From Christensenellales bacterium (GTDB lineage Bacteria; Bacillota; Clostridia; Christensenellales; CAG-917), in contig JBGUQC010000004.1 in the NCBI GenBank assembly GCA_045130665.1, forward strand, positions 635,217 through 699,216: a stretch of 64,000 bases of DNA, written 5' to 3'. The translations under genes and the position numbers were made by a program. The stretch's first letter is position 1; the number at the start of each line of letters is the position of its first letter. Below the pieces are notes generated by a model that saw only the letters and a list, made by a program, of their open reading frames with translations, was not told the origin of the DNA and did no database searches. This document shows positions 16,579 to 56,310 of the stretch, piece by piece.

Positions 16579-16589
16579 TCATGCAATAG

Positions 16590-16857
16590 CGCTTGACCAA
16601 GAACAAGTAGGAGCGAGGGGCCTTTTAGAGAGATGCCGGTTGCTGCAAGGCATTAAGGGAATCGTATCTGAATACATCTTGTTAGCTGCGTACGGAAAGG
16701 AAACGAGTATGCTACGCCGGGATTGCCCGTTACAGCAAGAGAGCAACTGCTCCATAAGGTTTAATTAGTAATAATTAAGCGAATAGAGGTGGTACCACGA
16801 ATAATTCGTCCTCTTAAACAAAAATCTAGAATTAGATTAATGTTGAGAGGATTTTTT
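16590..16857 (+). promoter_or_regulatory. T-box riboswitch leader with apparent Tyr (UAC) specifier
   Basis: Stem I shows the AGUA S-turn, an AGAGAG bulge and an AUGCC/GGCAU distal helix. The specifier loop reads GAA-UAC-A, with the codon at 16673-16675. The T-box sequence AAUAGAGGUGGUACCACG lies at 16782-16799. A terminator (GTCCTCTT 16808-16815 with TGAGAGGA 16844-16851) is followed by a T6 run. Confidence 0.8.
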
Positions 16858-36564: not shown

Positions 36565-36590
36565 GAATGTTTTTTTGTGGATAATTGACC
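36565..36590. repeat. attL-like junction (left island boundary)
   Basis: GAATGTTTTTTTGTGGATAATTGACC is an imperfect direct repeat of 54969-54991. The shared core TTTTGTGG lies at 36573-36580. Confidence 0.55.
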
Positions 36591-36606
36591 AAAAAGTATC
36601 TACAAA

Positions 36607-38280
36607 TTATTTTCTATTTAATACAACAACTGTCTCAAAGCTCGAATCTTTTTCCCACAACACTTTGTTCACCTCTTCATTGTTTACATAGACGGGGAAA
36701 TTGAACTCGATGGACTTCAATGGTATCTTTGCTTCCTCGTCATTTGGATAGATTTGAACCTCTTTTATGAGATATGACACCAAATCCCGTCGTTCTTCCT
36801 CTGTCATTATATCATAGAATGCTCCGAAAGTCTTTAACATTTCATAGATATTTTCCACCGTCACCCGTTCTTTTTCGATAGACTCCTTACGCAAATTGGC
36901 ATCGTCAAGACAAGATTCGATTTCACTGATTGTATCATACAATGAATCAAGCCGTTTCGTCATATCTGCGATCTTTCTTTCGCGATGAGTTGCGTCCATC
37001 GGCATCGTGTCGATTTCGTGTTCCAACCGAGTTTTGTTAGCAATCACCTCTTTCAGCTTTTTCTCGTAATTGGCAATCTCAGTATCAATCTGCGTAGTGT
37101 CAATCTCCTGCGATATTCTGCGTTGCACTTCTTTTGCAAAAGTCTCGTTTGCAACAAGCAATTTGATTGCCTCGATAACCAGCGGCTCGATATCTGTCTT
37201 GCGGAGTTTGGCTTTATAATCGCACATCTTGCCGCGCTTCCCTCCGCTATGTCCGCAATAGTAATAGTAAACGTCTTTGTATGTCCCATCCCGATTCGTC
37301 CACTCGTGTCGATTACAATACATAATGCCGCCACATTTCGGACAGCGCAGTATTCCCGTTAAAAGATGGGAGCGTTCGCGCCCTTGCTTACACTCCCACT
37401 TTACTCCGGTAGCTATTCGTTTTTCACGAGCCTTGTTCCACATCTCTTCGCTGACGATCCCTTCGTGTTTGCCGTCACTCAAGATATAATCGTCGGTTTC
37501 AACTCTTCTGTATTCGGCTTTCGTGCCTTTCACTTTTTCTTTTGTCCGTCGTCCGAAGGCAATTTTTCCGCAATAAACCGGATTGTCCAAAATGATCTTA
37601 ATGAAATGCCCCGACCAGTCTTCTATCGAGTGCCTTTGATGCGGTCTCTTTTTAAAACCTTGCAAGTTCAGATATTTGGCTATTCCGCCGTAACCCGCTT
37701 TTGTATTTACAAAGCGGTCGTAAATCAAACGGACGATTTCCGCCTCTTTTTCGTCTATTACAAGTTCGTTATTGACAAGTTGGTAACCGAACGGCGGCGG
37801 ACCGCCGTTCCATTTACCTTGTCTTGCTTTTTCTTTACGTCCGTTCATCGTCTGTTCGAGAATATTCTCTCTTTCGATTTCAGCCACAGCCGAAAGAATC
37901 GAAATTAGCAATTTACCGCTCGTTTGAGATGAATCGATTCCTTCTTCTACGCATATCAGTTCTACGCCATACGACTGTATCAATTCCAAAGAGTTCAGAA
38001 TATCAGCGGCGTTTCTGCCAAATCGAGACAGTTTATAAACGATGACGTAATCAACGCCCAATCCGTTTTTAATATCGTTCAGCATCCTTTTGAATTCCGG
38101 ACGCCCTTCGATAGATTTACCGGATTTTCCTGCGTCTTCATATGCACCGACGTGTACCATTTCTTCCCGTTCGGCGTATCTCGTAATGCAATTGGCTTGT
38201 CCTTCCAAACTGTATCCATCTACCTGCATTTCGGTACTTACACGAAGATACATTACATACTTCTTGCCTTCTCTTCTCAT
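36607..38280 (-). CDS. Large serine recombinase (TnpX/TndX-like)
   Basis: N-terminal resolvase catalytic domain YLRVSTEMQ..GYSLEGQ...YKLSRFGRN. This is followed by a recombinase domain, the zinc-ribbon cysteines CPKCGG...C..C, and a C-terminal coiled coil. Confidence 0.9.
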   Translation of the reverse strand: MRREGKKYVMYLRVSTEMQVDGYSLEGQANCITRYAEREEMVHVGAYEDAGKSGKSIEGRPEFKRMLNDIKNGLGVDYVIVYKLSRFGRNAADILNSLELIQSYGVELICVEEGIDSSQTSGKLLISILSAVAEIERENILEQTMNGRKEKARQGKWNGGPPPFGYQLVNNELVIDEKEAEIVRLIYDRFVNTKAGYGGIAKYLNLQGFKKRPHQRHSIEDWSGHFIKIILDNPVYCGKIAFGRRTKEKVKGTKAEYRRVETDDYILSDGKHEGIVSEEMWNKAREKRIATGVKWECKQGRERSHLLTGILRCPKCGGIMYCNRHEWTNRDGTYKDVYYYYCGHSGGKRGKMCDYKAKLRKTDIEPLVIEAIKLLVANETFAKEVQRRISQEIDTTQIDTEIANYEKKLKEVIANKTRLEHEIDTMPMDATHRERKIADMTKRLDSLYDTISEIESCLDDANLRKESIEKERVTVENIYEMLKTFGAFYDIMTEEERRDLVSYLIKEVQIYPNDEEAKIPLKSIEFNFPVYVNNEEVNKVLWEKDSSFETVVVLNRK

Positions 38281-38525
38281 TCTTCCTCCTTGCGACTATC
38301 CGCACCTTGCATTACTTGTTTTCCATACTTTGAAACAATCCCTGCCAAAAACTGATAAAACGCATTTTCATATTCTTTTTGAATTTCTAATTCTGTCTTG
38401 TTCCCTTCCTGTTTTGTATCCAATATCCTTATTCGGACTTACTGCGAAACACTTATTTCGCGTCCTTATTGCTTTGAATACTATGTTCTCTCTTCATTGC
38501 TTTTCCTCCTTATTTTGAAAAGATT

Positions 38526-38822
38526 TTAAGTATTCGGTTTTTTCTTTTCGACATCCTCTAAACCGACAAAGTCTGTTTTTGCGGATTGTTTCTTATTCTT
38601 CGCGTCTGCGCCTGCCGCCATTTCTTTTAACTTCTCATATCCTGCGACAATCAACTGTACTTTGGTAAATCCGCTCGTTTTCAAGAAAGCGTTGATTTCT
38701 TCAAAAAGCGACCTCGGTATCATCGTTCCGAAATTTCCGCTCGTCTGCTTTCTCTTTTCTTTGTTTACTTCTTCGTACTTCCGTCTTGCCGTTCTCTGCG
38801 GTGTGTTCTCTTTCTTTTCCAT
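38526..38822 (-). CDS. Small basic protein with a ribbon-helix-helix-like core
   Basis: 98 aa. FGTMIPRSLFEEINAFLKTSGFTKVQLIVAGYEKLKE fits a strand-helix-helix pattern. AAGGAG RBS. The fold assignment is inference only. Confidence 0.4.
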   Translation of the reverse strand: MEKKENTPQRTARRKYEEVNKEKRKQTSGNFGTMIPRSLFEEINAFLKTSGFTKVQLIVAGYEKLKEMAAGADAKNKKQSAKTDFVGLEDVEKKKPNT

Positions 38823-38836
38823 CGGTCAATTCTCCT

Positions 38837-39199
38837 TTATTTAACGTATACAATCTCGTTTAAGATCTCTTCTTCGATAATCCGTCTTTTCTCTTCCTCT
38901 ACCTGCAAATCGTGCAGGAAGTTACCGTTCCTTTTATACTTCTCTTCTTGGGACAATTTTTCATACATTGCAGTCCACATTCTGTCTGCCGCGGCGTCTA
39001 CACCATGTAAGTATTCCGGTAAATCAACTATCGACCAATATTTTGCAACGTTATGTTCTTCGAGATACTTCTTCGCAAGCGTTCCGTACTTCCCGTAAAC
39101 GTGCTTAACCGGCTTGACAAGTCTTTGATATACCTGTATTTCTTCCACAGTCAAACCCATTCCGGCTTCGGCTTTTCTCATAATTTCTTGTTCGTTCAT
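38837..39199 (-). CDS. TnpV-like transposon protein
   Basis: YGKYGTLAKKYLEEHN...LPEYLHGVD.AA.....M...L....EEILNEIVY matches my recollection of the TnpV family (LGKYG...YL.EH...L...L..ID..A......M...EIVL.ELIY). Start is the ATG at 39199 after GGGAGG. Confidence 0.65.
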   Translation of the reverse strand: MNEQEIMRKAEAGMGLTVEEIQVYQRLVKPVKHVYGKYGTLAKKYLEEHNVAKYWSIVDLPEYLHGVDAAADRMWTAMYEKLSQEEKYKRNGNFLHDLQVEEEKRRIIEEEILNEIVYVK

Positions 39200-39285
39200 C
39201 GTCAACCTCCCATAAATGTTTAGTCGTATCAATACGATACAGTATATCTCTCGCTTTGTCAAGCTCTTTTTTCAACTTTCTTCAG

Positions 39286-40593
39286 CTATTTCGTCCAATT
39301 ATACTTGGTGTTCGGTTTTACTTCCTCATTTGCTTTTACCTCCTCTTGTTTTCTCTTTTCTTCGATTTCCTGTTCGATCTCCTTTAATCGGTTATGACAC
39401 GCGCTCGTGTGCGGATTGAATAGGTCGAACACCGAGGCGAATAGCCCATCGGTGATTCCTCGTATCTTCCGCGCCGAGATGGTCAAGTTGCGTTTTAACG
39501 CCTTGTCGTTGGTCTTGTACTGCCGTTTCGGGTTTCTTTGATATGTTTCCCTTTGAATGTCCCTGACGTGGCGGAGAACGATGTTCCCGAGTCTTCTTCT
39601 GTAATCCCATTCGACCGCTTCTATCGTGTGTAGCGTTTTCAGTCCGTCGCCCAACTCGGTAAAGCCTTCCATATTCTGAACACAGTGAAGTTCGCCATCA
39701 GCTTGATTCTTATACCATCCGCCCATCTTGTCCTGTAGCTTTTCTTTCGTGGCTCGTAGTTCCTTTTTGAAAGCGTCGTCGGCGCGTTGCGCTTCGGAAT
39801 CCATATCAATGAGATAATCGGCGATCATATCAATAAGCGGTCGGTGCGGCTTCATCTCTTTGCTCGCATACCATAACGGTTTGTCCCGTGGCAGTTCGTC
39901 GGCGAGTTCCTTCATCCACTTGCGAACGACGTCGTTGACGTGCGCCCGTCCGTATTCTTCGTTCTTTTGAAGAGCGTCGATCACGGCGTCCCTGCGCTTG
40001 TCCAACTCATCGTCGATGGTGTAGGCGTTCAGCCGTTCCGTCATCTTCTCGATGGCGTCCATCTGTATTTTACCTTTCTTGCGGTAGGTGTAGCCGGCGG
40101 CGCGTTTGTTCTTCACTTTCGGCTCTTTCTCAAAGAACAGGTAGTGGATATGTAGGTGAGTCACTTTGTCCAAGTGCAAGGCGCACATCAAGTCCATATT
40201 GTCGGGATCGAAGCCGGCGTCCTTGAAGAATTGATTGAACGTCTTTTTGACAAGCGCGATACACTTTTCGGGCGTGTCGATGAGGCGAGAGTCTTCCTCG
40301 TTAAAGGAGATAAACCCGTGCCACAAGTTCTTTTCGCCTTCTCTCGCACGTTTCTTGATTTCCTTGACCTCTTCCTTTGACAGCATACCGTTCTGATTGA
40401 ACACGCCCGTGCTCTTTTGCAGATATTCGAGCATCGTGAACTTCGTCGCTTCTTCGCCATATATCTTTCCTTCCGTGGTCATATACTTGTAGATATTGTT
40501 CTCGCCCGACATATCGTAGAAGGCGCGATTCTTGGCGTGTTTCTCTATCTCTTCTTGCGTTGCGTTCTTCGGCAACCGATACGGCGTGTACAA
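39286..40593 (-). CDS. Putative relaxase / mobilisation protein (MOBV-like His motif)
   Basis: ALHLDKVTHLHIHYLF resembles the HxDE..(P)HxH metal-binding motif of Mob/Pre relaxases such as MobM (VHLDESTPHMHM). The start is uncertain: the track uses a TTG with no SD sequence. Confidence 0.55.
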   Translation of the reverse strand: MYTPYRLPKNATQEEIEKHAKNRAFYDMSGENNIYKYMTTEGKIYGEEATKFTMLEYLQKSTGVFNQNGMLSKEEVKEIKKRAREGEKNLWHGFISFNEEDSRLIDTPEKCIALVKKTFNQFFKDAGFDPDNMDLMCALHLDKVTHLHIHYLFFEKEPKVKNKRAAGYTYRKKGKIQMDAIEKMTERLNAYTIDDELDKRRDAVIDALQKNEEYGRAHVNDVVRKWMKELADELPRDKPLWYASKEMKPHRPLIDMIADYLIDMDSEAQRADDAFKKELRATKEKLQDKMGGWYKNQADGELHCVQNMEGFTELGDGLKTLHTIEAVEWDYRRRLGNIVLRHVRDIQRETYQRNPKRQYKTNDKALKRNLTISARKIRGITDGLFASVFDLFNPHTSACHNRLKEIEQEIEEKRKQEEVKANEEVKPNTKYNWTK

Positions 40594-40639
40594 TATATCA
40601 AAGATAACCGGTGATTTGTTTTGTTCTATAATGATTTCC

Positions 40640-40730
40640 TCCTTTTGTTAGTGTGTTTTCCCGTTGTCAAAACGGTTGTCGGGTATCCCGAAACCGTAAA
40701 TCCTTTTGCGGTGAAACTGCAAAAGCTTAG
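40640..40730. other. Candidate oriT region upstream of the relaxase gene
   Basis: TAGTGTGTT lies at 40648-40656. GTTGTC direct repeats sit inside a CCCG...CGGG bracket at 40660-40683. A 7-bp inverted repeat CTTTTGC/GCAAAAG lies at 40703-40725. Confidence 0.3.
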
Positions 40731-40788
40731 CCTGCTTACTTTTTCCTCTTTTTTGCTTCACTTTTGCTTGCAACTTTGCTTTCACGTT

Positions 40789-41493
40789 TTAACCGATAAT
40801 TTCTTTGTAATGCGTCAGGATCTGATACAGGCTCTTGCAATCCGCGTACGCCGTATGTGGCAATACGTAATCCAACATCCACCAGTCAACGTCCGCCGTC
40901 AGGTGTATACTTGACTTGTATATATCGTTCCTTATTTGCGGGTGACGTTGCAAAAATCCGTCCATATCAAGCCGCCCTTGTCGTTCGTCGCTTACTTCTC
41001 TGACTTGATCGGCGGTAACGGGGATACGCTCGGTTCTGCCGCCTTTACTGCCAACTCTGCGCCGGACTTTCGATAGGTCTAACTTCCGCTTTGCGAGCGC
41101 AAAGAACCCGTCGAGCGGCGGTTTCAACGTAGGCGTTTTGTCCTCGAACATATACCCGCAGATGGCTTTGACGTACTGTCCGCTTTGCTTGTCGTCAAGT
41201 AAGGTAAGCGCGTCGTAAAAGTTCTCTTGAAAGGTAAAGTGTTTCATCCGTCTATTCAGTCCCGCGCTCTGCTTGCCGCACTTCACGGCGTCTTTGCTCT
41301 CTTCCAATACGTCCACGAGATTGTCCCAATAGAAACGCTCTTTGCCGTCCGTGATTTCAGTCACAGGCTCATCGGTGAACATGAAGGCGCACATCCGCTT
41401 TGCCATTCGTCCCGCTTCTTCGTCTGTTAAGCCGTTCAGTATCTCGGCGTAAAAGTCGTAGAAGGGGAATTGATTGATTTGTCTTTCTTCCAT
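40789..41493 (-). CDS. Conserved MGE protein with an internally duplicated helical module, function unknown
   Basis: Module A is FPFYDFYAEILNGLTDEEAGRMAKRMCAFMFTDEP and module B is FTFQENFYDALTLLDDKQSGQYVKAICGYMFEDKTP. Strong AAGGAGG RBS. Confidence 0.45.
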   Translation of the reverse strand: MEERQINQFPFYDFYAEILNGLTDEEAGRMAKRMCAFMFTDEPVTEITDGKERFYWDNLVDVLEESKDAVKCGKQSAGLNRRMKHFTFQENFYDALTLLDDKQSGQYVKAICGYMFEDKTPTLKPPLDGFFALAKRKLDLSKVRRRVGSKGGRTERIPVTADQVREVSDERQGRLDMDGFLQRHPQIRNDIYKSSIHLTADVDWWMLDYVLPHTAYADCKSLYQILTHYKEIIG

Positions 41494-41849
41494 TTACTTC
41501 CTCCTTATTTGTGTTTTTGTTTGCCGCCGTTTAACGACCGTCGGCACGTCATTCAGTTGTGCATACGCATCACCTCCCGTTTGATTGATTCGCCCACAAA
41601 AGGGCATAAAAAAGCCGCCGATATGTCCTACCGCCGACTTTGATATTTGTTGTTCAGTTGTGGTTGTCGCTTTCTTTATTACGTCATCAATTACATCTCC
41701 TTGTCAGATTCATAGCATACGAAAACGGAAGTCTTGTGCAGACTCCCGCCTTTGTTGCGTTATTCAGTTTGTCGAGCGAAACGTTTATTCCCCTCTATAA
41801 TATAGCCAGGAGAGCGTTGAAAAATCGTACCCCCTGTTAAAAATTCCGA

Positions 41850-42434
41850 TTATTTGCCGAAAAGTACCTTTAATAAACGCAGTTGTGCTAATTCTTCTTC
41901 AGTTTGTTTTAAGGCGCGCTCGCGCTCTCTCTTACGCTTTCGCGCTTCCTTTCTCTTCTGCCGTTTCTTCCCTTTCTTGGCTTCGATGGCTTGCAAACGG
42001 AGTTTTTCGAGGTTCTCTTCCGCTTTCAGAATGAGTTTGCGGACGGCGCCTTCCGTCACGCCCATCTCTTTGGCAATATCGACTTTCTTCATTTCAAGAT
42101 ACTTGAACTTGAAGTAAGCTTGCGCCTGCCGCGCCGTGAGCCGCGACTCCAACCATTTCTGTTTCCGCTCCAGTCGCTCGTCTTCCATCTGAGCCAATTC
42201 TTCTTCGAGTTCTTCTTCTTCGCGTTTCTCCCACACGGTCTCAATATCCGAATTAGGATCGGCGAACTCAAAACCCGCTTCTTCGAGCATATCCAAAGAA
42301 ACGTGCCGCCGCGTTTCTTTCCGGTTCACTTTCTGCTCGTATTTCTCAAGCTCGTAGAACACTTCCGCGACTTCGTCCGTTACTTCCAATTCTTCTTTAT
42401 GCCCATCGGCAAAGGTGTATAAAATCGTTTTCAT
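41850..42434 (-). CDS. Sigma-70 region-4-like HTH protein
   Basis: LTARQAQAYFKFKYLEMKKVDIAKEMGVTEGAVRKLILKAEENL is a region-4/LuxR-type HTH. It is followed by a Lys/Arg/Glu-rich tail. Confidence 0.55.
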   Translation of the reverse strand: MKTILYTFADGHKEELEVTDEVAEVFYELEKYEQKVNRKETRRHVSLDMLEEAGFEFADPNSDIETVWEKREEEELEEELAQMEDERLERKQKWLESRLTARQAQAYFKFKYLEMKKVDIAKEMGVTEGAVRKLILKAEENLEKLRLQAIEAKKGKKRQKRKEARKRKRERERALKQTEEELAQLRLLKVLFGK

Positions 42435-42450
42435 TTTATCGATTATTCAG

Positions 42451-44781: not shown

Positions 44782-44785
44782 ATAT

Positions 44786-49797: not shown

Positions 49798-49877
49798 TCG
49801 TTTTTTATCCTTATTTCTCCTGTCCTATTTTACCACTTTTCGTCGTAAAAATCAATGCCGCCGTAGCCCTACTATGA

Positions 49878-49906
49878 ATAATATCGTATCCATTTTACTT
49901 TGTAAA
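49878..49906 (-). promoter_or_regulatory. Promoter of the RM-like operon
   Basis: On the minus strand: TTTACA (49906-49901), a 17-nt spacer, then TATTAT (49883-49878). It lies about 80 nt upstream of the ATG at 49797. Confidence 0.5.
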
Positions 49907-49993
49907 CCGCCATCTGTCCCAATATGGGTACTCCTTGACTTATTCGTTTCGGAGCATATCAGCTTTCCTATTCCATACAAAGCACTCCCAACT

Positions 49994-50698
49994 CTAAATG
50001 CGTATTGTTAAGCTGTCTAACAAAACCCACTGTGTTTGATTTGAGTAATCAATTGTGCCTTCGTTTGCACAGTCGTTTATATCCATTGCGAATTTCATTC
50101 TGAACGGTTCAGACAAACAGTTTTTTAAGTTTATGATATTCGTCCACAAAGAACCGTTACCGTCGCCGAAACTACATTTCTTCAAATTCTTGTTGTCCAA
50201 CAAAAAACGATTATGGCTTACTTCGTTTCGCAATGCGATAACAGCGTCAAGGTCGCGAGATAGTTTATCAATTTTATTAAGATAAAGAGGGAATAACTCT
50301 TGCTTATCTGTTTCAGGCAACTTTTTCGCTTGCGATATCAATTGCCCGAACGTTAGGGAAGATAACGCGCTGAAAAAGCCATCGCCTGAATCCAAGTAAC
50401 GTTGTAACTGTAAAGTATGTATTATTGCTCCACTATTATCGCTATATTTGTTTGAAATAAACGCGCGAATGCTTTCTTCCAAAAGACCAATATATTTATA
50501 AAGAACACGACGTATCCGTTTATCGTAGCGGAAAGCGGTGGCAATTTCGGCATAAGAAACTTTTTCACCGGAAAGGCTTTCCAGGTGTTGGCGAACGTGA
50601 TCGTGTTCGTCAATGCCACGGTATTGAAGATAATGAACCGACTTCTTTTTCTCTTCTTCGGTTATTATTATTTTTTCCCAAAACTCTTCGTACGTCAT
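49994..50698 (-). CDS. Abi_2 (AbiD/AbiF-like) HEPN-domain protein
   Basis: FRYDKRIRRVLYKYIGLLEESIRAFI plus IALRNEVSHNRFLL. The latter contains the R-x4-H HEPN motif, R157..H162, at 50213-50230. Confidence 0.7.
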   Translation of the reverse strand: MTYEEFWEKIIITEEEKKKSVHYLQYRGIDEHDHVRQHLESLSGEKVSYAEIATAFRYDKRIRRVLYKYIGLLEESIRAFISNKYSDNSGAIIHTLQLQRYLDSGDGFFSALSSLTFGQLISQAKKLPETDKQELFPLYLNKIDKLSRDLDAVIALRNEVSHNRFLLDNKNLKKCSFGDGNGSLWTNIINLKNCLSEPFRMKFAMDINDCANEGTIDYSNQTQWVLLDSLTIRI

Positions 50699-50705
50699 AA
50701 TAAGG

Positions 50706-51326
50706 CTAATCGCAAATCTCGTTGATTGCTTGGATCAATATCGAAAACGAAGCAATATCATCTTGCTTGGACAAGTGCTGATTCTTCAACTTAAGATATC
50801 TCGCGCGCAAATCATTCCACTTTCCGGCGTCCTTTATCGCTTTGATTTTTGTTTGGTAATTACGCGAATTACGAACTTCATTCCAGTAATACTGTCCGGT
50901 CGCTTTATTGTGTACGATCTTCAGATAGTTGCCGTTGTTTCCTTCGCACATAATGGCAACGTCGAAAGAAAAGTGTAAGCGGTTCCCGAAAATCAACTTC
51001 GACGTTATCACCGAAGTAGAGTTTTCCGCAGGTTTAAAGCCCAAATCGGGATTCGTTTCGTTAAACGCTTGAATGAACAGTTCCTTTATCTTTTTGGGAT
51101 TGTTTATCAGCCCTTGCTTGTCCTTTTGTAGAATAAAATTGTAGTCCAGATCAAACTCGCCATTCTCTCCGTTTTGGGTGATAAGGTTATTGCTTCCACT
51201 ACCGATCAGAACGAATTGAAAAGTAAAGTAATCTTTAAGCCAACTCTGTTGAACGTTCTTAATAATGGTTTCGCAAGCGTTTTTTAATTCTCTTAATTCC
51301 TGTTTATCGTATACGTAATCAAACAT
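50706..51326 (-). CDS. Minimal Pol-beta-superfamily nucleotidyltransferase with a helical C-terminal region
   Basis: VLIGSGS-x13-DLD, with DLD at 51144-51152, gives the GS...DxD signature. A third acidic strand reads HFSFDVAIM. AGGAGA RBS. Confidence 0.65.
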   Translation of the reverse strand: MFDYVYDKQELRELKNACETIIKNVQQSWLKDYFTFQFVLIGSGSNNLITQNGENGEFDLDYNFILQKDKQGLINNPKKIKELFIQAFNETNPDLGFKPAENSTSVITSKLIFGNRLHFSFDVAIMCEGNNGNYLKIVHNKATGQYYWNEVRNSRNYQTKIKAIKDAGKWNDLRARYLKLKNQHLSKQDDIASFSILIQAINEICD

Positions 51327-51349
51327 TATTATTCTCCTAAAACATTTTT

Positions 51350-53224
51350 CTACCTTTTATCTTCTTTATAGCAAATTTCAGATTGTTTTCTGTAGAAAGC
51401 AATCCCAAGTTTCAAAATGCTATAGCCCTGCGCTTCAAGCGGATAGGCATATTCTTTTTCGTCGATTTGATTGAGCGCTTCTTGCGACAACGCGCAGAGT
51501 TCGTTCGTAATCGTATCGGCATTTTTACTTGTCGTAGACAGCACCTTAACTTCGATGATGATGGCGGGCATATTTTTATTGAATGGAACCATTTGGATAT
51601 CGAAACGACCATTGCCGGATTCCCGATTAGACGAAACAGAATACAAATCATTCATCACTGCGTACAGTCCCAACATCAAGCCGTGATAAAAGCCTTCGTT
51701 CGACGTATCGAAGAAACTTACCGTTTGTTTGAGATAGCGTTCGAGATGTTGTTTCATTCCGTTTATATCGTTATCGATAATCGCTTGTTGAACAGACGAC
51801 GCCGTAGATTGAGCGCGTGAGTCGCCGATCGCCGAAAGAATCTCTTTTCCATAGATCCGTTGGATCTCTTTGTTGGGAATGGAAACATAATAGAATGACG
51901 TTCCCGCGACGTTCGGACTCTTGTTTAGTTTCAAATAGCCGGCGATGAGCAGAAAACTGAATATCGTTTGAGGATTGTCCTTGATCTCGGGATAGATCAC
52001 CGAAGTGTCCACGTCGGCAAGAACCGACTTCCCTTCCAACAAGGCTTGTAACTTTTCTTTCGTTTCTACGGGCGATTCCAAAACGATCTGACGAATGATA
52101 TCATTGCTACCCGTGTTTTGCCAATAGGCTTGCGGTATACATTCGTTTTTGATATAACTGATGACTGACCACGGATTAAACATCTCGTTGGAGCCGAAGC
52201 GATACCCGTCGTACCATTCGCACACTTCGCCGAACTTGCTTTTCTTGCCATAAGCGGCGAGAAGCGTTTTGACTTCTTCCTTCGTAAAACCGAAGTACGT
52301 GCTATAACGCTCTTTCAGTACCGAATTATCGATGAGATTATTCATGCCGCTGAAAATGCTTTCTTTTGCGACGCGCAAAATACCCGTCATAAAACCGAAT
52401 GAAAGATGTGAATTATCTTTGAATCCGCCCGAAAACAAATTGCGCATAAACACAATGATTTTCTCATAATACTTTTTCGTATATCCTTGTTGAATCGGAG
52501 TATCGTATTCGTCGATGATAATGACAGGTGCTATATCGTAATAGTCATGCAACATCTTCGACAACCTTGCAAGTGCTTCGGTCAATTCTACTTCCGTTTC
52601 ATTGCCGGACAATAGTTTGTTGTAATAAACGATCTCGTTTTTATCCGCTTTCGCATTCTCGCCGATAATTTCTTTATGGCGAATAAACTCTGTTTGAAAC
52701 AGCGACTTTATTTTAGCAAAGGTATCTTCCCATGTATCGAACTTAACGTCCTTAAAAGAAAGGTAGATCACGGGATATTTCCCTTGATAAGAGGTGTATT
52801 TCTCTCCGTATGCCCATATTCTTTTATCGGCAAAATAACGAGACGTATCCTCATCGCTCTTCTCAAAAAACACGCGAAGCATATCCATCGTCAATGTTTT
52901 TCCGAAGCGACGGGGGCGCGTAAACAAGCTGACCTTGGGGAGATCGTCCAATATGTCTTTGATTAGATCGGTCTTATCCACGTAATAATAATGACTAACA
53001 GCTTCTTTGAAATCTGACACGCCGATAGGAAGCGGCTTCCGTAAATTTATCAAAGCTCCTCTTTTCGTTCTCCCGTCTACCGGCTTTTCCGCATTCACAG
53101 GTATTAACCACATTCCATTCTCTTTTTTCGCTCCAATGATTTTACCATCACGACAAAGCATTGTGATTCTGCGTTCTTCTAATTCCCATTTTTCAGCAGC
53201 TTCTTGCACATTAATGAAATCCAT
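51350..53224 (-). CDS. HTH + AAA-ATPase_like + PD-(D/E)XK (PDDEXK_9-like) protein
   Basis: N-terminal excisionase/MerR-like HTH (INVQEAAEKWELEERRITMLCRDGKI). Then PIGVSDFKE....YYYVDKT...TRPRRFGKTLTMDML (Walker A). The C-terminal GNGRFDIQM....AIIIEVKV is a D...ExK nuclease motif. Confidence 0.75.
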   Translation of the reverse strand: MDFINVQEAAEKWELEERRITMLCRDGKIIGAKKENGMWLIPVNAEKPVDGRTKRGALINLRKPLPIGVSDFKEAVSHYYYVDKTDLIKDILDDLPKVSLFTRPRRFGKTLTMDMLRVFFEKSDEDTSRYFADKRIWAYGEKYTSYQGKYPVIYLSFKDVKFDTWEDTFAKIKSLFQTEFIRHKEIIGENAKADKNEIVYYNKLLSGNETEVELTEALARLSKMLHDYYDIAPVIIIDEYDTPIQQGYTKKYYEKIIVFMRNLFSGGFKDNSHLSFGFMTGILRVAKESIFSGMNNLIDNSVLKERYSTYFGFTKEEVKTLLAAYGKKSKFGEVCEWYDGYRFGSNEMFNPWSVISYIKNECIPQAYWQNTGSNDIIRQIVLESPVETKEKLQALLEGKSVLADVDTSVIYPEIKDNPQTIFSFLLIAGYLKLNKSPNVAGTSFYYVSIPNKEIQRIYGKEILSAIGDSRAQSTASSVQQAIIDNDINGMKQHLERYLKQTVSFFDTSNEGFYHGLMLGLYAVMNDLYSVSSNRESGNGRFDIQMVPFNKNMPAIIIEVKVLSTTSKNADTITNELCALSQEALNQIDEKEYAYPLEAQGYSILKLGIAFYRKQSEICYKEDKR

Positions 53225-53254
53225 TTGCTTGGCTCCTATATGTTAATCATCTAT

Positions 53255-53283
53255 ATTATATACATTCGCAGGTGGCATGTCAA
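53255..53283 (-). promoter_or_regulatory. Consensus SigA promoter of the AAA/NTase/HEPN operon
   Basis: On the minus strand: TTGACA (53283-53278), exactly 17 nt, then TATAAT (53260-53255). The ATG at 53224 is preceded by TAGGAG. Confidence 0.65.
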
Positions 53284-53333
53284 GATAGATGTCAAGTTAT
53301 TTTCGCCAAATGTTAAGTTATATGTCGAGATAT
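53277..53333. repeat. Four copies of a 12-bp motif ATGTYRAGWTAK arranged as two tandem dimers
   Basis: ATGTCAAGATAG (53277-88), ATGTCAAGTTAT (53289-300), a 9-bp gap, ATGTTAAGTTAT (53310-21) and ATGTCGAGATAT (53322-33). The first copy contains the -35 hexamer. Confidence 0.6.
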
Positions 53334-53417
53334 GCCGATAAAATATTTAAATATATATTAAAAAAACCAGAAACCCTATCAAAAGCCTATTGTAAAATCA
53401 TATAAAAAACATTTTTC

Positions 53418-54551
53418 CTATTCAGCTTTTATTACGGCTACATACTTTGATCCAAACATATGATCTGAATAAAAATCAGTCCACGTGTTAATAGATGCTA
53501 CCGCATTGACATGTCTGATTAATATTCCGTCCATCTCAAGTTCTTTTCGTTTGTTAATTATGTAAGAATGTAAATCATTAAAGTCTAATACAATTCCATT
53601 TCCTAACACGTTAATGCTTGTTCTTTTCAAAACTGTTTTTTCTTGCAAATACGCTTTCGGATTCTCTCTTTCTGAAAACCTCTTTGTGCATTCGATGGTA
53701 TCTACAAGCGACATAAGCATTAATAGTTTATTCTCTATTGTTACTCTTTTAGGCGAAGTCGAAAGCAAATTAAATAAAGAATATCTCCTATAAATAGCAT
53801 CTTTTTCTGCACTGTCAGATTTAAATATATTATGTGTTGCTGCAATAAAACAAGCTATCTTTTGTTCTTTCATAATAGCAGGACTAGGATAAATACCAGT
53901 CATGCCATTTTTCAATTTCGTTTTCAAGTCTCGCTCAACTTTTTTGCAATAATTGGAAAAAACGAGTGCACCTCCAATAATACCATGATCATTCTTTTCG
54001 TTCTTATCATTTTTTAATTGCTCTTTCCTATATTGGAAATAATTTAAAACCTCGTCATAAGTATATGAGAAAAAACACTTTGTTTCTTCGATTATGGACA
54101 TATTGTTTAAATATCTGAACTCTCCGCTTCCATAATCATCCATAAATAGATTATGCTCTTTAATAAGGTTTTCTATCTGTAAATCTTCATCTTTGACTTC
54201 CTTCCTAAAATAACCGTAATCATGCGTTATTGCTGTTTGTAGCCATATTCTTCCAAAATATAGCGATCCTACGCCAGCGGGATATTTGTTCAATTGAAAA
54301 GTATCAGCTAACGCAACACCCAACAACCAAGTTACCATAATATGTGTTGCCCGTTGTTTGTTAAAAATAATCGCATTCGGATCATCGTCCAAAATACATT
54401 TAATAAAATCCACACAAAGGTTACAATCGTTAATAACTTTTTCAAAGGAATTGAACTTTATTATCTTGTACTCTTCTTCATCAAGACCTATATGCAAGTT
54501 CAACAGATTATTGTATGTTTGTTCTATAAACTTATATAAAGACAATTTCAT
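53418..54551 (-). CDS. Hypothetical protein with an HD-domain-like His/Asp pattern
   Basis: 377 aa with ..RATHIMVTWLLG...LQTAITHDYGYF...NDHGIIGGALVF...AATHNIFKSD, which fits an H..HD..H..H..D layout. AT-rich gene at the island edge. The assignment is tentative. Confidence 0.4.
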   Translation of the reverse strand: MKLSLYKFIEQTYNNLLNLHIGLDEEEYKIIKFNSFEKVINDCNLCVDFIKCILDDDPNAIIFNKQRATHIMVTWLLGVALADTFQLNKYPAGVGSLYFGRIWLQTAITHDYGYFRKEVKDEDLQIENLIKEHNLFMDDYGSGEFRYLNNMSIIEETKCFFSYTYDEVLNYFQYRKEQLKNDKNEKNDHGIIGGALVFSNYCKKVERDLKTKLKNGMTGIYPSPAIMKEQKIACFIAATHNIFKSDSAEKDAIYRRYSLFNLLSTSPKRVTIENKLLMLMSLVDTIECTKRFSERENPKAYLQEKTVLKRTSINVLGNGIVLDFNDLHSYIINKRKELEMDGILIRHVNAVASINTWTDFYSDHMFGSKYVAVIKAE

Positions 54552-54657
54552 AGGTTCACTTCATGGATAGTATTTTTCTTGCTTTTTTAAAACAGCTACT
54601 CAAGCACTTGAGTATGCGATGCCAATCATATGATCATCACGTTTTGTTTTGGAATGT

Positions 54658-56310
54658 TTATATTATCTCAAAATGTTTCAACGCATCCTTGATCACTTCT
54701 ATCATCTTTTCCGATGGATGTTGACGAGGACGTTTGAGTTCTTCGACGGCGTTAGGGGCGTCGTACATAGGCAAGCCGTAACTACGTTTGACCTCGGCGA
54801 TATAAGCGGTGTGGACTTTGAAACCGTAGTTCTCTTCCACATAAGCTTGTATCATTTTGTAGGTAACCCGCTCCGCTGGTTTATAGACTTGTGCATTCTT
54901 TAATAGGGTATCCGTTTGAATACTGTTGTCCTTGTCGAAATCCACTTTAACTACGATATGACTGTCCGGAATTTTGTGGGAAAGTTGAACCAGCGTTTCA
55001 ACATGAGTCGTTTGTGGGAACATATCAAAAGGTTGAATATATGCTATCTCATACTTATCACTAAGCATTTTTATATCTCTACTTAATGTCGCAGGATTAC
55101 ATGAAATGTAAACTATCTTATCAAACTCAACTTCTTTTGCCTTTAAAACAACTTTTTCATCAATTCCTTTTCTTGGCGGATCAATAAGTAATGCTTTTAT
55201 GTTTCTATCATCAACGAGTTCATCCATAAATTTTCCAGCATCGTCACAAATACAACGAACTCTATTAGACACATTTGTACTTTCCATTAATTTCCTAGCA
55301 TCTTGAACAGCTTCTGGAACTATTTCAACAGCATCAAATTTGGACTTTGGCATACGTTTTGCTAAGTTTGCTGTTAAAATTCCAATTCCTGAATAAAGTT
55401 CTACTATATTTCCATCAAAGTTTGAAAGCTTTTCGGCAACCTTGTTGTAAAGAGCACTCATAACATCTAAATTTACCTGTAAAAATGAAAATGGGTCAAT
55501 TTTGACATTTATTCCATCTATTTGATGTAATGTTTCTTCACCATACACAAGTTGCTTAGTATCTCCTAAAATTACATTACCTGTCTTTTTGTTTGGCGAG
55601 AAATACAAACTAAAGGTTGAAAATGCCTCTTTAATTTTAGCAACTAAAGAGTCTACAAAAGGAATCTTGTCTCCAGCACCTACCAAAACAATATCTGGAG
55701 TATCTATAAACCTAACTACCAAATGTCTTAGGAAACCTTTTTTGGTTATCTCATCGTATACACTAACATTATTCTCATTAGCCCACTCTGAAAAAATCTT
55801 GATGATATCTGCTGCCCATTCTTTATGTAACGGACAAAATTTCATGGAAACTACTTTGTGGGTTTGTTTCTCATAAAAACCTAAAATTACTCTTTCTCCT
55901 CTCTTGCCAAAAGGTAATGCAAGTTTGTTTCTATATTCCCATTCATTTACAGAAACAGGGGTAGGAACATCTACCTCTATTCCAGCATTTTTCTTGAGTG
56001 TTCTTTGGATATTTAGTCTCTTAATATCTAACTGTTCTGAATAAGCAATGTGTTGCATATCACAGCCACCACATTTGCCATAATACGGACATTTTGGTTT
56101 TACTCTAAAATCGGAACTTTTAATAACTTCAACGATATCACCAAAGGCATAGTCTTTCTTTACATATGAAAGTTTGATTTTAACCTTCTCACCTTTGATT
56201 GCACCTTGTATAAAAATAGGGTAATTATCTATCTTTGCGATACCTTCTCCACCCATTCCAAAGTCTAAAATATCAACTATGAGTTCTTCGCCGATTTTAC
56301 AATATCCCAT
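54658..56310 (-). CDS. rlmD: 23S rRNA (uracil-C5)-methyltransferase RlmD/RumA, chimeric: native body plus ~100-aa island-encoded C-terminal tail
   Basis: TRAM-like N-terminus, Fe-S cysteines CPYYGKCGGCDMQH, ELYSGIG, the YISCNPATLSRD nucleophile motif and DMFPQTTHVET. The frame then continues across the att core into GC-richer island DNA. Confidence 0.85.
   Translation of the reverse strand: MGYCKIGEELIVDILDFGMGGEGIAKIDNYPIFIQGAIKGEKVKIKLSYVKKDYAFGDIVEVIKSSDFRVKPKCPYYGKCGGCDMQHIAYSEQLDIKRLNIQRTLKKNAGIEVDVPTPVSVNEWEYRNKLALPFGKRGERVILGFYEKQTHKVVSMKFCPLHKEWAADIIKIFSEWANENNVSVYDEITKKGFLRHLVVRFIDTPDIVLVGAGDKIPFVDSLVAKIKEAFSTFSLYFSPNKKTGNVILGDTKQLVYGEETLHQIDGINVKIDPFSFLQVNLDVMSALYNKVAEKLSNFDGNIVELYSGIGILTANLAKRMPKSKFDAVEIVPEAVQDARKLMESTNVSNRVRCICDDAGKFMDELVDDRNIKALLIDPPRKGIDEKVVLKAKEVEFDKIVYISCNPATLSRDIKMLSDKYEIAYIQPFDMFPQTTHVETLVQLSHKIPDSHIVVKVDFDKDNSIQTDTLLKNAQVYKPAERVTYKMIQAYVEENYGFKVHTAYIAEVKRSYGLPMYDAPNAVEELKRPRQHPSEKMIEVIKDALKHFEII
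54969..54991. repeat. attR-like junction (right island boundary, inside the rlmD reading frame)
   Basis: GAATTTTGTGGGAAAGTTGAACC is an imperfect direct repeat of 36565-36590. The core TTTTGTGG lies at 54972-54979. Confidence 0.55.

What the first reader, a model, noticed from the sequence alone, without database searches (positions are those of the whole stretch)
36565..54991. 18.4-kb serine-recombinase mobilisable island with defence-type cargo inserted in rlmD
Seen in sequence: base composition changes abruptly at both ends. The host flanks are very AT-rich, while most island genes look about 45-50% GC against about 30% by eye (not computed). The island is bounded by the imperfect direct repeats GAATGTTTTTTTGTGGATAATTGACC (36565-36590) and GAATTTTGTGGGAAAGTTGAACC (54969-54991). 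A 557-aa large serine recombinase gene ends about 27 nt inside the left core. The backbone is recombinase, RHH-like protein, TnpV-like protein, MOBV-like relaxase and a sigma-region-4 HTH. No coupling protein, T4SS, capsid or terminase gene is present. Established knowledge: Tn4451/Tn4453-type mobilisable transposons combine a TnpX large serine recombinase, TnpV and a Mob/Pre relaxase. The 3' end of rumA/rlmD is a recurrent target of such recombinases in clostridia. Inference: this is a mobilisable, non-self-transmissible element that carries defence-like genes instead of the resistance gene usually found on Tn4451-type elements.
Basis: partly seen in the sequence, partly recalled or inferred. 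Interest (0 to 1): 0.6.

Follow-up and report, generated by a model that had tools for sequence, protein, structure and literature searches.

The report
Mobilisable island inserted in rlmD gene
This is a genuine 18.4-kb mobile island that a large serine recombinase inserted into the end of the host rRNA-methyltransferase gene rlmD; it carries defence genes, but it belongs to a kind of element already described in streptococci, enterococci and clostridia, so it is a new example rather than a new mechanism.

Summary
The island is real. Four independent metagenome contigs, 99% identical to both flanks, carry the uninterrupted site: a 446-aa rlmD followed directly by the downstream host gene. They place the crossover at a GA dinucleotide, at 36635-36636 and 54998-54999 (element 18,363 bp; GC 0.414 against 0.334/0.342).

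The left one is host DNA that is also present in the empty sites. The right one is one arm of attP.

The crossover lies inside the recombinase ORF. The element encodes 548 codons with no stop codon. The last 9 codons of the integrated gene are the host rlmD 3' end. RlmD in turn gains a 112-codon tail with no start codon of its own, from the other end of the element. An excised circle would encode a 661-aa recombinase.

This reciprocal swap of 3' ends at rumA/rlmD was described for vanG elements and ICE-r (Srinivasan 2014) and for streptococcal ICEs and IMEs (Ambroset 2016; Coluzzi 2017).

The relaxase is MobL-type, not MOBV, and the recombinase is not TnpX-type, so this is not a Tn4451-family element. 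No T4SS or coupling protein is present. The 5.8-kb backbone recurs at 89% identity with different cargo. The same recombinase lineage is fused to five different rlmD-type tails.

Verdict: new member of a known kind.

The parts
36635..54997 (-). The integrated element, 18,363 bp counting one copy of the GA crossover dinucleotide. All genes are on the minus strand.
   Evidence: The empty-site contigs L001-L004 align to the window up to 54995 and resume at 36638, at 99% identity. GC is 0.414 against 0.334/0.342 in the flanks.
54998..55001 (-). Upstream junction (host rlmD 5' part | element). The sequence shared with attB is TTGA in minus-strand sense; the GA is at 54999-54998.
   Evidence: Host identity ends after CATGTTGA. 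The element continues AACGCTGG where attB has GACAGTTG.
36635..36638 (-). Downstream junction (element recombinase core | host rlmD 3' end). Shared TTGA; the GA is at 36636-36635.
   Evidence: Host identity starts at TTGAGACAGTTG. The 89% backbone similarity to L005/L006 stops at 36634.
36637..36666 (-). P arm of the reconstructed attP, inside the recombinase ORF. It contains TTGTGGGAAA at 36660-36651.
   Evidence: The reconstructed attP shows 18/30 dyad symmetry, with a perfect 10-bp inverted repeat 14 nt either side of GA.
54968..54997 (-). P' arm of the reconstructed attP, inside the tail ORF.
36607..38280 (-). Large serine recombinase ORF in its integrated form (557 aa). Codons 1-548 and the GA of codon 549 are element-encoded. 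The last 9 codons (ETVVVLNRK) and the stop codon are the host rlmD 3' end.
   Evidence: Pfam Resolvase 7e-42, Recombinase 4e-20, Zn_ribbon_recom 1e-9. PDB relatives are 3guv and SPbeta SprA 9dxh. The 3' end is identical to the empty-site rlmD end.
54661..54996 (-). 112-codon element-encoded 'tail' with no start codon of its own. In the integrated state it is fused in frame to RlmD residue 438. In an excised circle it would be the C-terminus of a 661-aa recombinase.
   Evidence: Frame reconstruction. Homologues of 647-661 aa cover 100% of the reconstructed protein. Purifying selection: pN 0.14-0.25 against pS 0.70-0.78. None of 43 RlmD homologues has such a tail.
54658..56310 (-). The rlmD::tail fusion ORF (550 aa): 437 host codons, codon E438 that spans the junction, and the 112-codon tail.
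   Evidence: Pfam TRAM and tRNA_U5-meth_tr end at residue 445. The native gene in the empty site is 446 aa.
38526..38822 (-). 98-aa backbone protein next to the recombinase gene. It has no family hit. It may be an RHH-like regulator or accessory protein.
   Evidence: No Pfam, NCBIfam or PHROG hit. It is conserved next to the recombinase in L005/L006. The single-sequence AF2 model is low confidence: an unstructured stretch at 27-36 followed by two helices.
38837..39199 (-). TnpV-like protein (120 aa from the ATG start).
   Evidence: PF14198 TnpV, 1.6e-7, 31.7 bits against a cut-off of 27. The gene is 120 aa in L005/L006.
39286..40632 (-). MobL-family relaxase. The start is probably ATT (40632) or ATA (40629), 5 nt after a GGAGG. 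The listed TTG start is at 40593.
   Evidence: Homologues of 60-90% identity hit PF18555 MobL (23/30, best 4e-21) and PF03432 (20/30). NCBI names two of them 'relaxase MobL'. The profile matches PDB 9qq7 'Relaxase' at E 0.0013. The window copy itself scores below threshold.
40594..40788 (-). Intergenic region upstream of the relaxase gene, a candidate oriT. It holds an inverted repeat at 40703-40725, the palindrome CGGGATACCCG at 40680-40690, and a hairpin at 40661-40675.
   Evidence: The hairpin is kept in L005 through changed stem sequence (CCGTT/AACGG becomes CCTC/GAGG). The oriT function is inferred, not shown.
40789..41493 (-). DUF6291 protein (234 aa), part of the backbone.
   Evidence: PF19808, 3e-15. 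Conserved in L005/L006.
41850..42434 (-). Sigma-70 region-4 HTH protein (194 aa), the last gene of the conserved backbone.
   Evidence: PF08281, 3.5e-6. The 89% backbone similarity to L005 spans 42435-36634.
42451..44781 (-). Cargo: 776-aa protein with a hydrophobic N-terminal region that looks membrane-spanning by eye (not tested), function unknown, GC 0.32.
   Evidence: No hit in Pfam, NCBIfam, PADLOC or PHROGs.
44786..48823 (-). Cargo: 1345-aa single-chain restriction-modification-type enzyme. It has a weak T5orf172-like N-terminus, a ResIII/DEAD helicase, an Eco57I-type methylase with an NPPY motif, and a C-terminal region that matches PADLOC type IIG and type II methyltransferase models (probably target recognition).
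   Evidence: Pfam Eco57I 1e-25 and ResIII 4e-17. PADLOC REase_MTase_IIG 2e-44. T5orf172 at 0.0019, just below the cut-off.
48820..49797 (-). Cargo: 325-aa protein that overlaps the 1345-aa gene by 4 nt. It matches a PADLOC type II methyltransferase model end to end.
   Evidence: PDLC03390, 2e-125. No Pfam, NCBIfam or PDB hit.
49994..51326 (-). Cargo: an Abi_2/AbiD-like protein (234 aa, with the Rx4H motif RNEVSH) and an adjacent 206-aa protein with GS...DxD motifs. This is a likely HEPN-nucleotidyltransferase pair.
   Evidence: PF07751, 3.5e-8. PADLOC AbiD, 2.8e-9. The motifs were read from the translation. The pairing is inferred.
51350..53224 (-). Cargo: 624-aa protein with an N-terminal HTH, an AAA-ATPase_like domain and a PDDEXK_9 nuclease domain.
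   Evidence: PF09820 3e-40 and PF08011 8e-18. PHROG excisionase-like HTH at residues 2-55. No PADLOC hit.
53418..54551 (-). Cargo: 377-aa protein of unknown function, GC 0.315.
   Evidence: No hit in any library.

Best explanation
This is an integrative mobilisable element (IME). It belongs to the group of elements whose single large serine recombinase targets the 3' end of rumA/rlmD.

Shown. The element sits between GA dinucleotides in the codon about 9 codons before the rlmD stop. Related genomes carry the uninterrupted site. attP lies inside the recombinase ORF, so integration swaps 3' ends reciprocally. The recombinase keeps 548 of its own codons and borrows the last 9 codons and the stop from rlmD. 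RlmD loses 8 residues and gains a similar stretch (TLVQLSHK) followed by about 100 more element-encoded residues.

Inferred. The 557-aa recombinase excises the element at the two GA sites. This restores the 446-aa rlmD and yields a circle in which the recombinase ORF reads through attP into the tail (661 aa). The MobL relaxase nicks an oriT, probably in the 195-bp region upstream of its gene. The single strand is then transferred through the T4SS and coupling protein of a co-resident conjugative element. In the recipient, the recombinase integrates the element at the conserved ...CAYGTNGA... (HVE) codons of rlmD.

Between the tail and the 5.8-kb mobility backbone lies a variable cargo bay. Here it holds a single-chain helicase-methylase restriction-type enzyme with a partner protein, an Abi_2/HEPN protein with a putative nucleotidyltransferase, an ATPase-nuclease, and two unknown proteins.
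For: Empty sites: L001-L004, from four samples, are 99.0-99.7% identical to both flanks and join them at TTGA.

Junction anatomy and reading frames.

Recombinase: the three large-serine-recombinase domains are present, with PDB relatives. The YLRVSTEMQ motif reads as intact.

Breakpoint: in about 115 of 120 homologues the common sequence ends right after a V/F-E/D codon at position about 548-549. Top hits in the representative library also stop matching at profile positions 549-567.

Target specificity and recent mobility: the same recombinase lineage (96% identity for the two full-length homologues; near-identical 3' ends in L090/L093) is fused to five different rlmD-type C-termini. These are ETVVVLNRK, ECVVLMSKANT, EVMCVMQRNCK, EVLSVLTIK and EVLCVLRRR.

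Modularity: backbone 42435-36634 is 89% identical to L005/L006 and the similarity stops at the crossover, while the cargo there is different. The tail alone is shared with L088/L089.

Relaxase: MobL by homology. MOB_L is an experimentally founded relaxase family (PMC5313138).

No T4SS or coupling-protein family was hit in any island ORF.

Literature: the same architecture is described in PMC4120198 and PMC4701971. IMEs with serine integrases in rumA are described in PMC5357655 and PMC5704250.
Against: No excised (attP-form) contig of this sub-lineage was found in JGI metagenomes. The exact recombinase sequence is not on record elsewhere. Current activity is therefore unproven.

The window's own relaxase copy does not reach the Pfam MobL threshold. 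Its start codon is non-canonical or uncertain.

oriT is only a candidate. No helper conjugative element is visible in the 64-kb window.

Direct similarity to the published vanG and ICE-r recombinases was not measured. The nearest named streptococcal 'rum' prophage recombinase is only 41% identical.
Confidence: 0.8

Rival explanations
1. It is a Tn4451/Tn4453-type mobilisable transposon, with a TnpX-like recombinase, TnpV and a Mob/Pre (MOBV) relaxase, in which defence cargo replaces the resistance gene.
For: It has a large serine recombinase with a GA crossover, a TnpV-like gene that passes the Pfam threshold, a relaxase and no T4SS. It falls in the same broad category of serine-recombinase IMEs from Clostridia.
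Against: The recombinase has no DUF4368; treating that domain as the TnpX/TndX hallmark rests on my own recall, not on a comparison with TnpX. The relaxase is MobL, not Mob_Pre/MOBV. Tn4451 integrates with low specificity and has a MobV relaxase (PMC5704250). This lineage is rlmD-specific and places attP inside the recombinase ORF.
Confidence: 0.04
2. It is an immobile remnant: a decayed conjugative element that has lost its T4SS, or an element whose recombinase is crippled by the loss of its own C-terminus. On this reading it is now simply a fixed genomic island.
For: No circular form was found. The integrated recombinase lacks the 112-aa tail that is under purifying selection. Related recombinases do occur in T4SS-bearing ICEs (L007).
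Against: All backbone ORFs are intact. The same backbone without a T4SS recurs at 89% identity with other cargo (L005/L006), so the small form is a stable lineage and not a single decay event. The tail-less 547-549-codon state is the normal integrated state of this family (PMC4120198, PMC4701971). CTn5, an ICE with a serine integrase, excised from an adhesin gene and inserted in rumA in C. difficile 630Δerm (PMC4701971). The four most similar genomes lack the insertion, so it is recent.
Confidence: 0.12
3. It is a prophage remnant or a phage satellite that integrates at rlmD.
For: Streptococcal 'rum' prophages use related recombinases. The DUF6291 protein and the tail have weak PHROG matches.
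Against: No capsid, terminase, portal, primase or packaging-related family was found in any ORF. A relaxase is present.
Confidence: 0.03

Closest known systems
vanG elements and ICE-r of streptococci and enterococci (Srinivasan et al. 2014, mBio, PMC4120198)
   Same: They insert at a GA dinucleotide about 10-11 codons before the rumA stop. A 547-549-codon serine recombinase gene lies at the element end and lacks a stop codon, so it is fused to the rumA 3' codons. A 101-115-codon segment without a start codon lies at the other end and is fused in frame to the rumA 5' part. The first tail residues resemble the RumA C-terminus. All of this is seen here: 548 codons, a 112-codon tail, and ETLVQLSHK against ETVVVLNRK.
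   Different: Those elements are 45-kb conjugative-type elements with resistance cargo, found in cultured pathogens. This one is 18.4 kb, has no T4SS, has a MobL relaxase and defence-type cargo, and sits in an uncultured rumen-type Clostridia genome. Sequence identity to those recombinases was not measured here.
Streptococcal ICEs and IMEs with a single serine integrase targeting rumA, such as IME_SpnAP200_rumA, family Ser_4 (Ambroset 2016, PMC4701971; Coluzzi 2017, PMC5357655; Guedon 2017, PMC5704250)
   Same: The att site lies inside the integrase gene. The 3' parts of rumA and the integrase gene are exchanged reciprocally. Both ICE and IME versions share related integrases, and integration modules are exchanged between them.
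   Different: Only a few rumA IMEs are described (two in PMC5357655, three in PMC5704250); their relaxase types were not checked here, and MOB_L does not appear among the relaxase superfamilies listed there. Ambroset et al. state that the replacement changes the reading frame. Here, as in Srinivasan et al., both fusions are in frame.
CTn5 of Clostridioides difficile
   Same: It is a clostridial element with a serine integrase that uses rumA as its primary site, and it can sit in secondary sites within other genes (PMC4701971). This matches the many fusions of related recombinases to genes other than rlmD.
   Different: CTn5 is a Tn1549-family ICE with its own conjugation module.
Tn4451/Tn4453 (TnpX, TnpV, TnpZ)
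   Same: It is a clostridial IME moved by a large serine recombinase acting at GA dinucleotides. It has a TnpV-like gene and is mobilisable in trans.
   Different: It uses the TnpX-clade recombinase, a MOBV relaxase (TnpZ) and low target specificity, and it carries catP/catD cargo. attP is not reported to split the recombinase gene.
SSV1-type archaeal viruses and Myxococcus phage Mx8 (attP within the integrase gene)
   Same: Integration partitions or alters the element's own integrase gene. PMC4701971 draws this parallel for Mx8.
   Different: Those are tyrosine recombinases and viruses. Here the recombinase is a serine recombinase and the exchanged partner is a host protein-coding gene, in frame.

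Membership tests
rumA/rlmD-targeting single large-serine-recombinase elements (vanG / ICE-r / CTn5 / Ser_4 IME group) | Large serine recombinase with Resolvase, Recombinase and Zn-ribbon domains | tested here: met
   PF00239 7e-42, PF07508 4e-20, PF13408 1e-9
rumA/rlmD-targeting single large-serine-recombinase elements (vanG / ICE-r / CTn5 / Ser_4 IME group) | Insertion at a GA dinucleotide about 10-11 codons from the rumA/rlmD stop, with an intact site in relatives | tested here: met
   The empty sites L001-L004 place the crossover in the HVE codon, 9 codons before the stop.
rumA/rlmD-targeting single large-serine-recombinase elements (vanG / ICE-r / CTn5 / Ser_4 IME group) | The att site lies inside the recombinase ORF; the element-encoded part (547-549 codons) lacks a stop codon and is completed by the rumA 3' codons | tested here: met
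   There are 548 element codons. The last 9 codons and the stop are identical to the rlmD end in the empty site.
rumA/rlmD-targeting single large-serine-recombinase elements (vanG / ICE-r / CTn5 / Ser_4 IME group) | A conserved segment of 101-115 codons without a start codon at the opposite end, fused in frame to the rumA 5' part | tested here: met
   The 112-codon tail has 2426 homologues, many of them joined to PF05958 fragments.
rumA/rlmD-targeting single large-serine-recombinase elements (vanG / ICE-r / CTn5 / Ser_4 IME group) | Phylogenetic clustering with the published vanG, ICE-r and Ser_4 integrases | not tested
Indirect evidence only: 41-47% identity to recombinases in streptococcal phage records (Javan; phi-Ssu..._rum) and 61% to copies on Enterococcus plasmids.
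Integrative mobilisable element (IME, as defined in PMC5704250) | Own integration/excision module plus relaxase/oriT, without a T4SS | tested here: met
   A recombinase and a MobL-type relaxase are present. No VirB4, VirD4, TcpA or other T4SS family was hit in any ORF.
Integrative mobilisable element (IME, as defined in PMC5704250) | Excision as a circle and mobilisation in trans by a conjugative element | not testable with these tools
   No attP-form contig was found. This needs PCR and mating assays.
MOB_L relaxases (RelLS20 type, PF18555) | Match to the MobL relaxase domain | tested here: inconclusive
   The window copy scores below threshold. Of 30 homologues at 60-90% identity, 23 hit PF18555 (best 4e-21, 75.9 bits against a cut-off of 28.5). 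The profile matches PDB 9qq7 'Relaxase' at E 0.0013. Membership is by transitivity.
Tn4451/Tn4453 family | TnpX/TndX-clade recombinase (with the DUF4368 C-terminal region) | tested here: not met
   No PF14287 hit. The best NCBIfam models are CcrB/CcrC-like, far below their cut-offs. That DUF4368 marks this clade is recalled from memory, not tested.
Tn4451/Tn4453 family | TnpZ-type Mob/Pre (MOBV, PF01076) relaxase | tested here: not met
   No PF01076 hit in the protein or in 30 homologues. They hit MobL instead.
Tn4451/Tn4453 family | TnpV gene | tested here: met
   PF14198, 31.7 bits against a cut-off of 27
Tn4451/Tn4453 family | Low target-site specificity | tested here: not met
   Five insertions of this lineage all lie in rlmD-type 3' ends. 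Only L088 shows a secondary site that mimics CAYGTYGA.

The most novel reading that the evidence does not exclude
The 112-residue tail may be more than a by-product of where attP lies. It could be a functional domain that moves between two proteins with the integration state. On the excised circle it is the C-terminus of a 661-aa recombinase. In the chromosome it is expressed as an RlmD-tail fusion from the host promoter. That arrangement could act as a built-in directionality or state switch for a serine recombinase with no identified RDF. For example, the full-length enzyme might favour attP x attB, while the truncated enzyme (with or without the RlmD-tail fusion acting in trans) permits attL x attR.

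The evidence does not exclude this. The tail is under purifying selection as strong as on the core. Its C-half folds as a small helical domain. It matches a family of standalone phage proteins (PHROG 27283). The in-frame arrangement is conserved across a very large family. The literature calls its significance unknown (PMC4120198).
Probability: 0.2. Interest if true: 0.65.

Novelty: new member of a known kind. Interest (0 to 1): 0.3.

Why it matters
The finding itself is ordinary for the field. rumA/rlmD is an established hot spot for serine-recombinase elements, and the reciprocal swap of 3' ends has been in print since 2014-2016.

The window adds three things. It extends the group to an uncultured rumen-type Clostridia lineage. 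It shows an IME version with a MobL relaxase. It also shows that the bay between the tail and the backbone is used to carry defence genes, with a different restriction/toxin set in the nearest relative. This fits the view of IMEs as carriers of defence islands.

Two practical lessons follow. First, annotation pipelines will call such loci a 550-aa 'RlmD' and a 557-aa recombinase, and both are chimeras. Second, direct repeats picked by eye can miss the real 2-bp crossover by tens of bases.

The one open question worth an experiment is what the conserved tail does.

Tried and rejected
Rejected, because the left one is present unchanged in four empty sites.

(2) The exact recombinase sequence in public assemblies. 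None is on record.

(3) An attP-form junction of this sub-lineage in JGI metagenome contigs, searched with a degenerate SFETLVQLSHK pattern. No matches.

(4) MOBV assignment of the 435-aa protein. No Mob_Pre hit in it or in its homologues.

(5) Fold of the tail. The AF2 model has pLDDT 72, and Foldseek against the PDB gave nothing below E = 2.6. There was no NCBIfam hit, and the Pfam scan of the rlmD::tail ORF gave no match beyond residue 445.

(6) A tail-specific search of the representative library. The profile kept all 661 positions, so the recombinase core dominated the result. It only confirmed that matches stop at positions 549-567.

(7) Host identification through RlmD in GTDB representatives. 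The nearest hits are only 62-64% identical (uncultured Clostridia MAGs, rumen), so the species is not represented.

(8) RHH status of the 98-aa protein. There are no family hits and only a low-confidence single-sequence model. It is plausible but unproven.

(9) The 1345-aa and 325-aa cargo proteins against PDB sequences. Nothing useful.

(10) Promoter and terminator scan of the backbone. Counts were close to those of shuffled sequence.

(11) 'Full-length' 647-661-aa recombinases as proof of free circles. Rejected as proof, because L011/L012 show they can arise where elements or remnants sit in tandem at the site.

Full report
OBSERVATION

The composition shift is real. The island has GC 0.414, against 0.334 and 0.342 in the flanks. 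Backbone genes are 0.41-0.50. Two cargo genes (776 aa, 377 aa) are host-like at about 0.32, so the island is a mosaic. Fourteen minus-strand ORFs fill it.

EMPTY SITE AND TRUE JUNCTIONS

I looked up the downstream host protein (155 aa, window 35997-36464, minus strand) by exact sequence. This returned four contigs from four samples. In each, a 446-aa rlmD is followed 143 nt later by that gene.

BLASTN shows that these contigs match the window at 99.0-99.7% on both sides. The match runs up to 54995 and resumes at 36638. Reading the three sequences side by side gives, in gene sense:
- attB: …ACTCATGTTGA|GACAGTTGTTGTATTAAATAGAAAATAA
- upstream junction: …ACTCATGTTGA|AACGCTGGTTCAAC…
- downstream junction: …GATTCGAGCTTTGA|GACAGTTGTTG…

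The sequence common to all three is TTGA. The crossover is most likely its GA (36635-36636 and 54998-54999). The element is 18,363 bp.

The right repeat overlaps the P' arm of attP.

The reconstructed attP has a perfect 10-bp inverted repeat (TTGTGGGAAA / TTTCCCACAA), 14 nt on either side of GA. This is typical of a large-serine-recombinase attP.

THE RECOMBINASE GENE CROSSES THE JUNCTION

The recombinase ORF (36607-38280) has the Resolvase, Recombinase and Zn-ribbon domains. It has clear PDB relatives, including SPbeta SprA.

Its last 9 codons (ETVVVLNRK) and its stop codon are the host rlmD 3' end. The element encodes only 548 codons plus the GA of codon 549.

Conversely, the rlmD ORF (54658-56310, 550 aa) consists of 437 host codons, a junction codon (E438) and 112 element codons. 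Both junctions are in the same codon phase. An excised circle would therefore encode a 661-aa recombinase, and excision would restore a 446-aa RlmD.

FAMILY EVIDENCE

I searched with the 661-aa reconstruction. About 25 of the top 120 homologues are 647-661 aa and cover the tail. Most of the others cover only the core. They carry unrelated C-termini of very different lengths, including FtsX, ABC transporter, MMPL, beta-galactosidase, RsmF and histidine-kinase domains.

In every readable case the common sequence ends just after a V/F-E/D codon at about position 548-549. This is what a GA crossover in a GAN codon predicts. The exhaustive representative search likewise stops matching at profile positions 549-567.

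The tail alone has 2426 homologues. Many are short ORFs joined to rlmD (PF05958) fragments, and NCBI names some of them 'RNA methyltransferase'.

None of 43 RlmD homologues from GTDB representative genomes has a tail. They end 8-20 residues after HVE.

The tail is under purifying selection. Between elements, pN is 0.14-0.25 against pS 0.70-0.78, which is comparable to the core. For L007 against L012, dN/dS is about 0.07.

The tail's C-half is predicted to be a small helical domain (pLDDT 80-92 locally). It has no PDB fold match. It has a weak match to a standalone phage family of unknown function (PHROG 27283).

Full-length recombinases in chromosomal contigs can arise where elements or remnants lie in tandem at rlmD (L011/L012). 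A 5.9-kb faecal-virome scaffold carries the core and tail contiguously, followed by cargo.

BACKBONE AND MOBILITY

The nearest recombinase (P0001, 96% identity) lies in an element whose 5.8-kb backbone is 89% identical to window 42435-36634. That backbone holds the sigma-r4 HTH, DUF6291, a relaxase-like protein, TnpV, the 98-aa protein and the recombinase. The similarity stops exactly at the crossover. The cargo there is different (RES, P4_cII-like, two DNA methylases) and the host is different too.

Counting the window, P0001, P0002, L090 and L093, this lineage is fused to five different rlmD-type C-termini. This shows site specificity and recent horizontal movement.

The 435-aa protein gave no significant relaxase-family hit in Pfam or NCBIfam on its own. 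However, 23 of 30 homologues at 60-90% identity hit PF18555 MobL (best 4e-21). NCBI names two of them 'relaxase MobL'. A profile of the family matches PDB 9qq7 'Relaxase'. MOB_L is the RelLS20 family (PMC5313138). It is therefore not MOBV.

The relaxase's likely start is ATT or ATA at 40632/40629, after a GGAGG. The listed TTG start would cut off the conserved PVIFDI-YTPY N-terminus.

The 195-bp upstream region has inverted repeats. One is a hairpin that is kept in L005 through changed stem sequence. This region is a candidate oriT, by inference only.

No T4SS or coupling-protein family was hit anywhere in the island.

CARGO

- A 1345-aa enzyme with a weak T5orf172-like N-terminus, a ResIII helicase, an Eco57I methylase and a C-terminal region matching type IIG/type II methyltransferase models (PADLOC type IIG, 2e-44). 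An overlapping 325-aa partner matches PADLOC MTase_II at 2e-125.
- An Abi_2/AbiD protein with an Rx4H motif, next to a 206-aa protein with GS/DxD motifs. This is a likely HEPN-nucleotidyltransferase pair.
- A 624-aa protein with an HTH, an AAA-ATPase_like domain and a PDDEXK_9 domain.
- Two proteins of unknown function (776 aa and 377 aa).

'Defence-type cargo' is a fair description for about half of the bay.

COMPARISON WITH THE LITERATURE

Srinivasan et al. 2014 (PMC4120198) describe the following for vanG elements and ICE-r:
- a GA target in rumA;
- a 547-549-codon serine recombinase gene at the element end that lacks a stop codon and is fused to the rumA 3' 11 codons;
- a 101-115-codon left-end segment without a start codon, fused in frame to the rumA 5' part;
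- its significance is stated to be unknown.

Ambroset et al. 2016 (PMC4701971) state that in all streptococcal ICEs in rumA the att site lies within the serine integrase gene. They also state that integration exchanges the 3' parts of both genes reciprocally. They cite the move of CTn5 into rumA in C. difficile.

Coluzzi 2017 and Guedon 2017 list IMEs with serine integrases in rumA. They describe Tn4451 as having low specificity and a MobV relaxase.

The architecture is therefore known. The Tn4451 label is wrong. The element is a new member of the rumA-targeting group, namely a MobL-type IME with defence cargo in an uncultured rumen-type Clostridia host. The nearest GTDB RlmD is 62-64% identical.

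VERDICT

Novelty: new member of a known kind. Interest: 0.3.

The only open thread is the function of the conserved tail that is swapped between the recombinase and RlmD.

Noticed in passing
Related proteins P0025-P0120; no window coordinates: One nearly invariant recombinase sub-family (…LWEKGNTV-E/D|) is about 67% identical to the window's. It is fused at the same codon to dozens of unrelated host gene 3' parts, including FtsX, ABC transporter, MMPL, beta-galactosidase, RsmF, histidine kinase and response regulator. Some clusters hold thousands of member sequences. It looks like a very abundant gut element with many secondary sites. Cluster sampling inflates long fusions, so no in-frame preference can be claimed.
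   Followed up: partly
L012 1824-3248 and 10001-11971; L011: rlmD is fused to a tail truncated after about 25 residues. About 6.7 kb further on, a recombinase carries a near-complete tail and is followed by the same downstream genes as in L011, which has a different element upstream. This suggests that elements or remnants accrete in tandem at the rlmD site.
   Followed up: partly
L087 (MT839491.1) 1152-3019: A 5.9-kb human faecal virome scaffold carries a related recombinase with the core and tail contiguous, followed by a 589-aa cargo gene. The recombinase is split by a frameshift. It could be an excised circle, but the record is linear and unverified.
   Followed up: partly
window 40593-40650: The relaxase ORF has an in-frame TAA at 40650-40648. 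There is no ATG, GTG or TTG before the TTG at 40593. A GGAGG at 40642-40638 sits 5 nt before ATT (40632) / ATA (40629). The conserved N-terminal PVIFDI-YTPY motif of homologues lies between them, so a non-canonical ATT or ATA start is likely. The same arrangement is seen in L005 and L006.
   Followed up: partly
window 44786-49797: The 1345-aa helicase-methylase carries a borderline T5orf172 (GIY-YIG-related) N-terminal domain where Type ISP enzymes have an Mrr-type nuclease. Its 325-aa partner matches a PADLOC 'type II methyltransferase' model end to end (2e-125). However, that partner has no Pfam hit, and no NPPY-type motif is visible in its translation.
   Followed up: partly
window 36565-36590 against 54969-54991: The host sequence downstream of rlmD (GGTCAATTATCCACAAAAAAACATTC in gene sense) resembles the element's P' arm (GGTTCAACTTTCCCACAAAATTCC), although it lies outside attB and is present in the empty sites. 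The rlmD codons MFPQT also contain TTCCCACAA, 11 nt before the GA. Whether this is chance or a trace of past insertions was not resolved.
   Followed up: no
L088 7600-8070: A tail 94% identical to the window's is preceded not by rlmD but by an ATG-CAC-GTC-GA sequence in a region with phage-like and reverse-transcriptase genes. Only 7 nt before the GA resemble the rlmD target. This is a secondary site that mimics CAYGTYGA.
   Followed up: partly
window 42451-44781 and 53418-54551: The two cargo genes with no family hit have host-like GC (0.32), unlike the rest of the island (0.38-0.50). This suggests they were acquired from a low-GC source separately from the backbone.
   Followed up: no
window 16002-16078 and 16585-16816: In the host flank there is a tRNA-Arg(ACG) gene and a T-box leader (111 bits). 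Neither is related to the island.
   Followed up: no
Enterococcus plasmids, e.g. NZ_CP072882.1 138038-141086: A recombinase 61% identical to the window's occurs on many large Enterococcus faecium, E. faecalis and E. lactis plasmids. The match is split into two pieces over about 3 kb with an IS3-family transposase annotated under it, so it looks interrupted.
   Followed up: no
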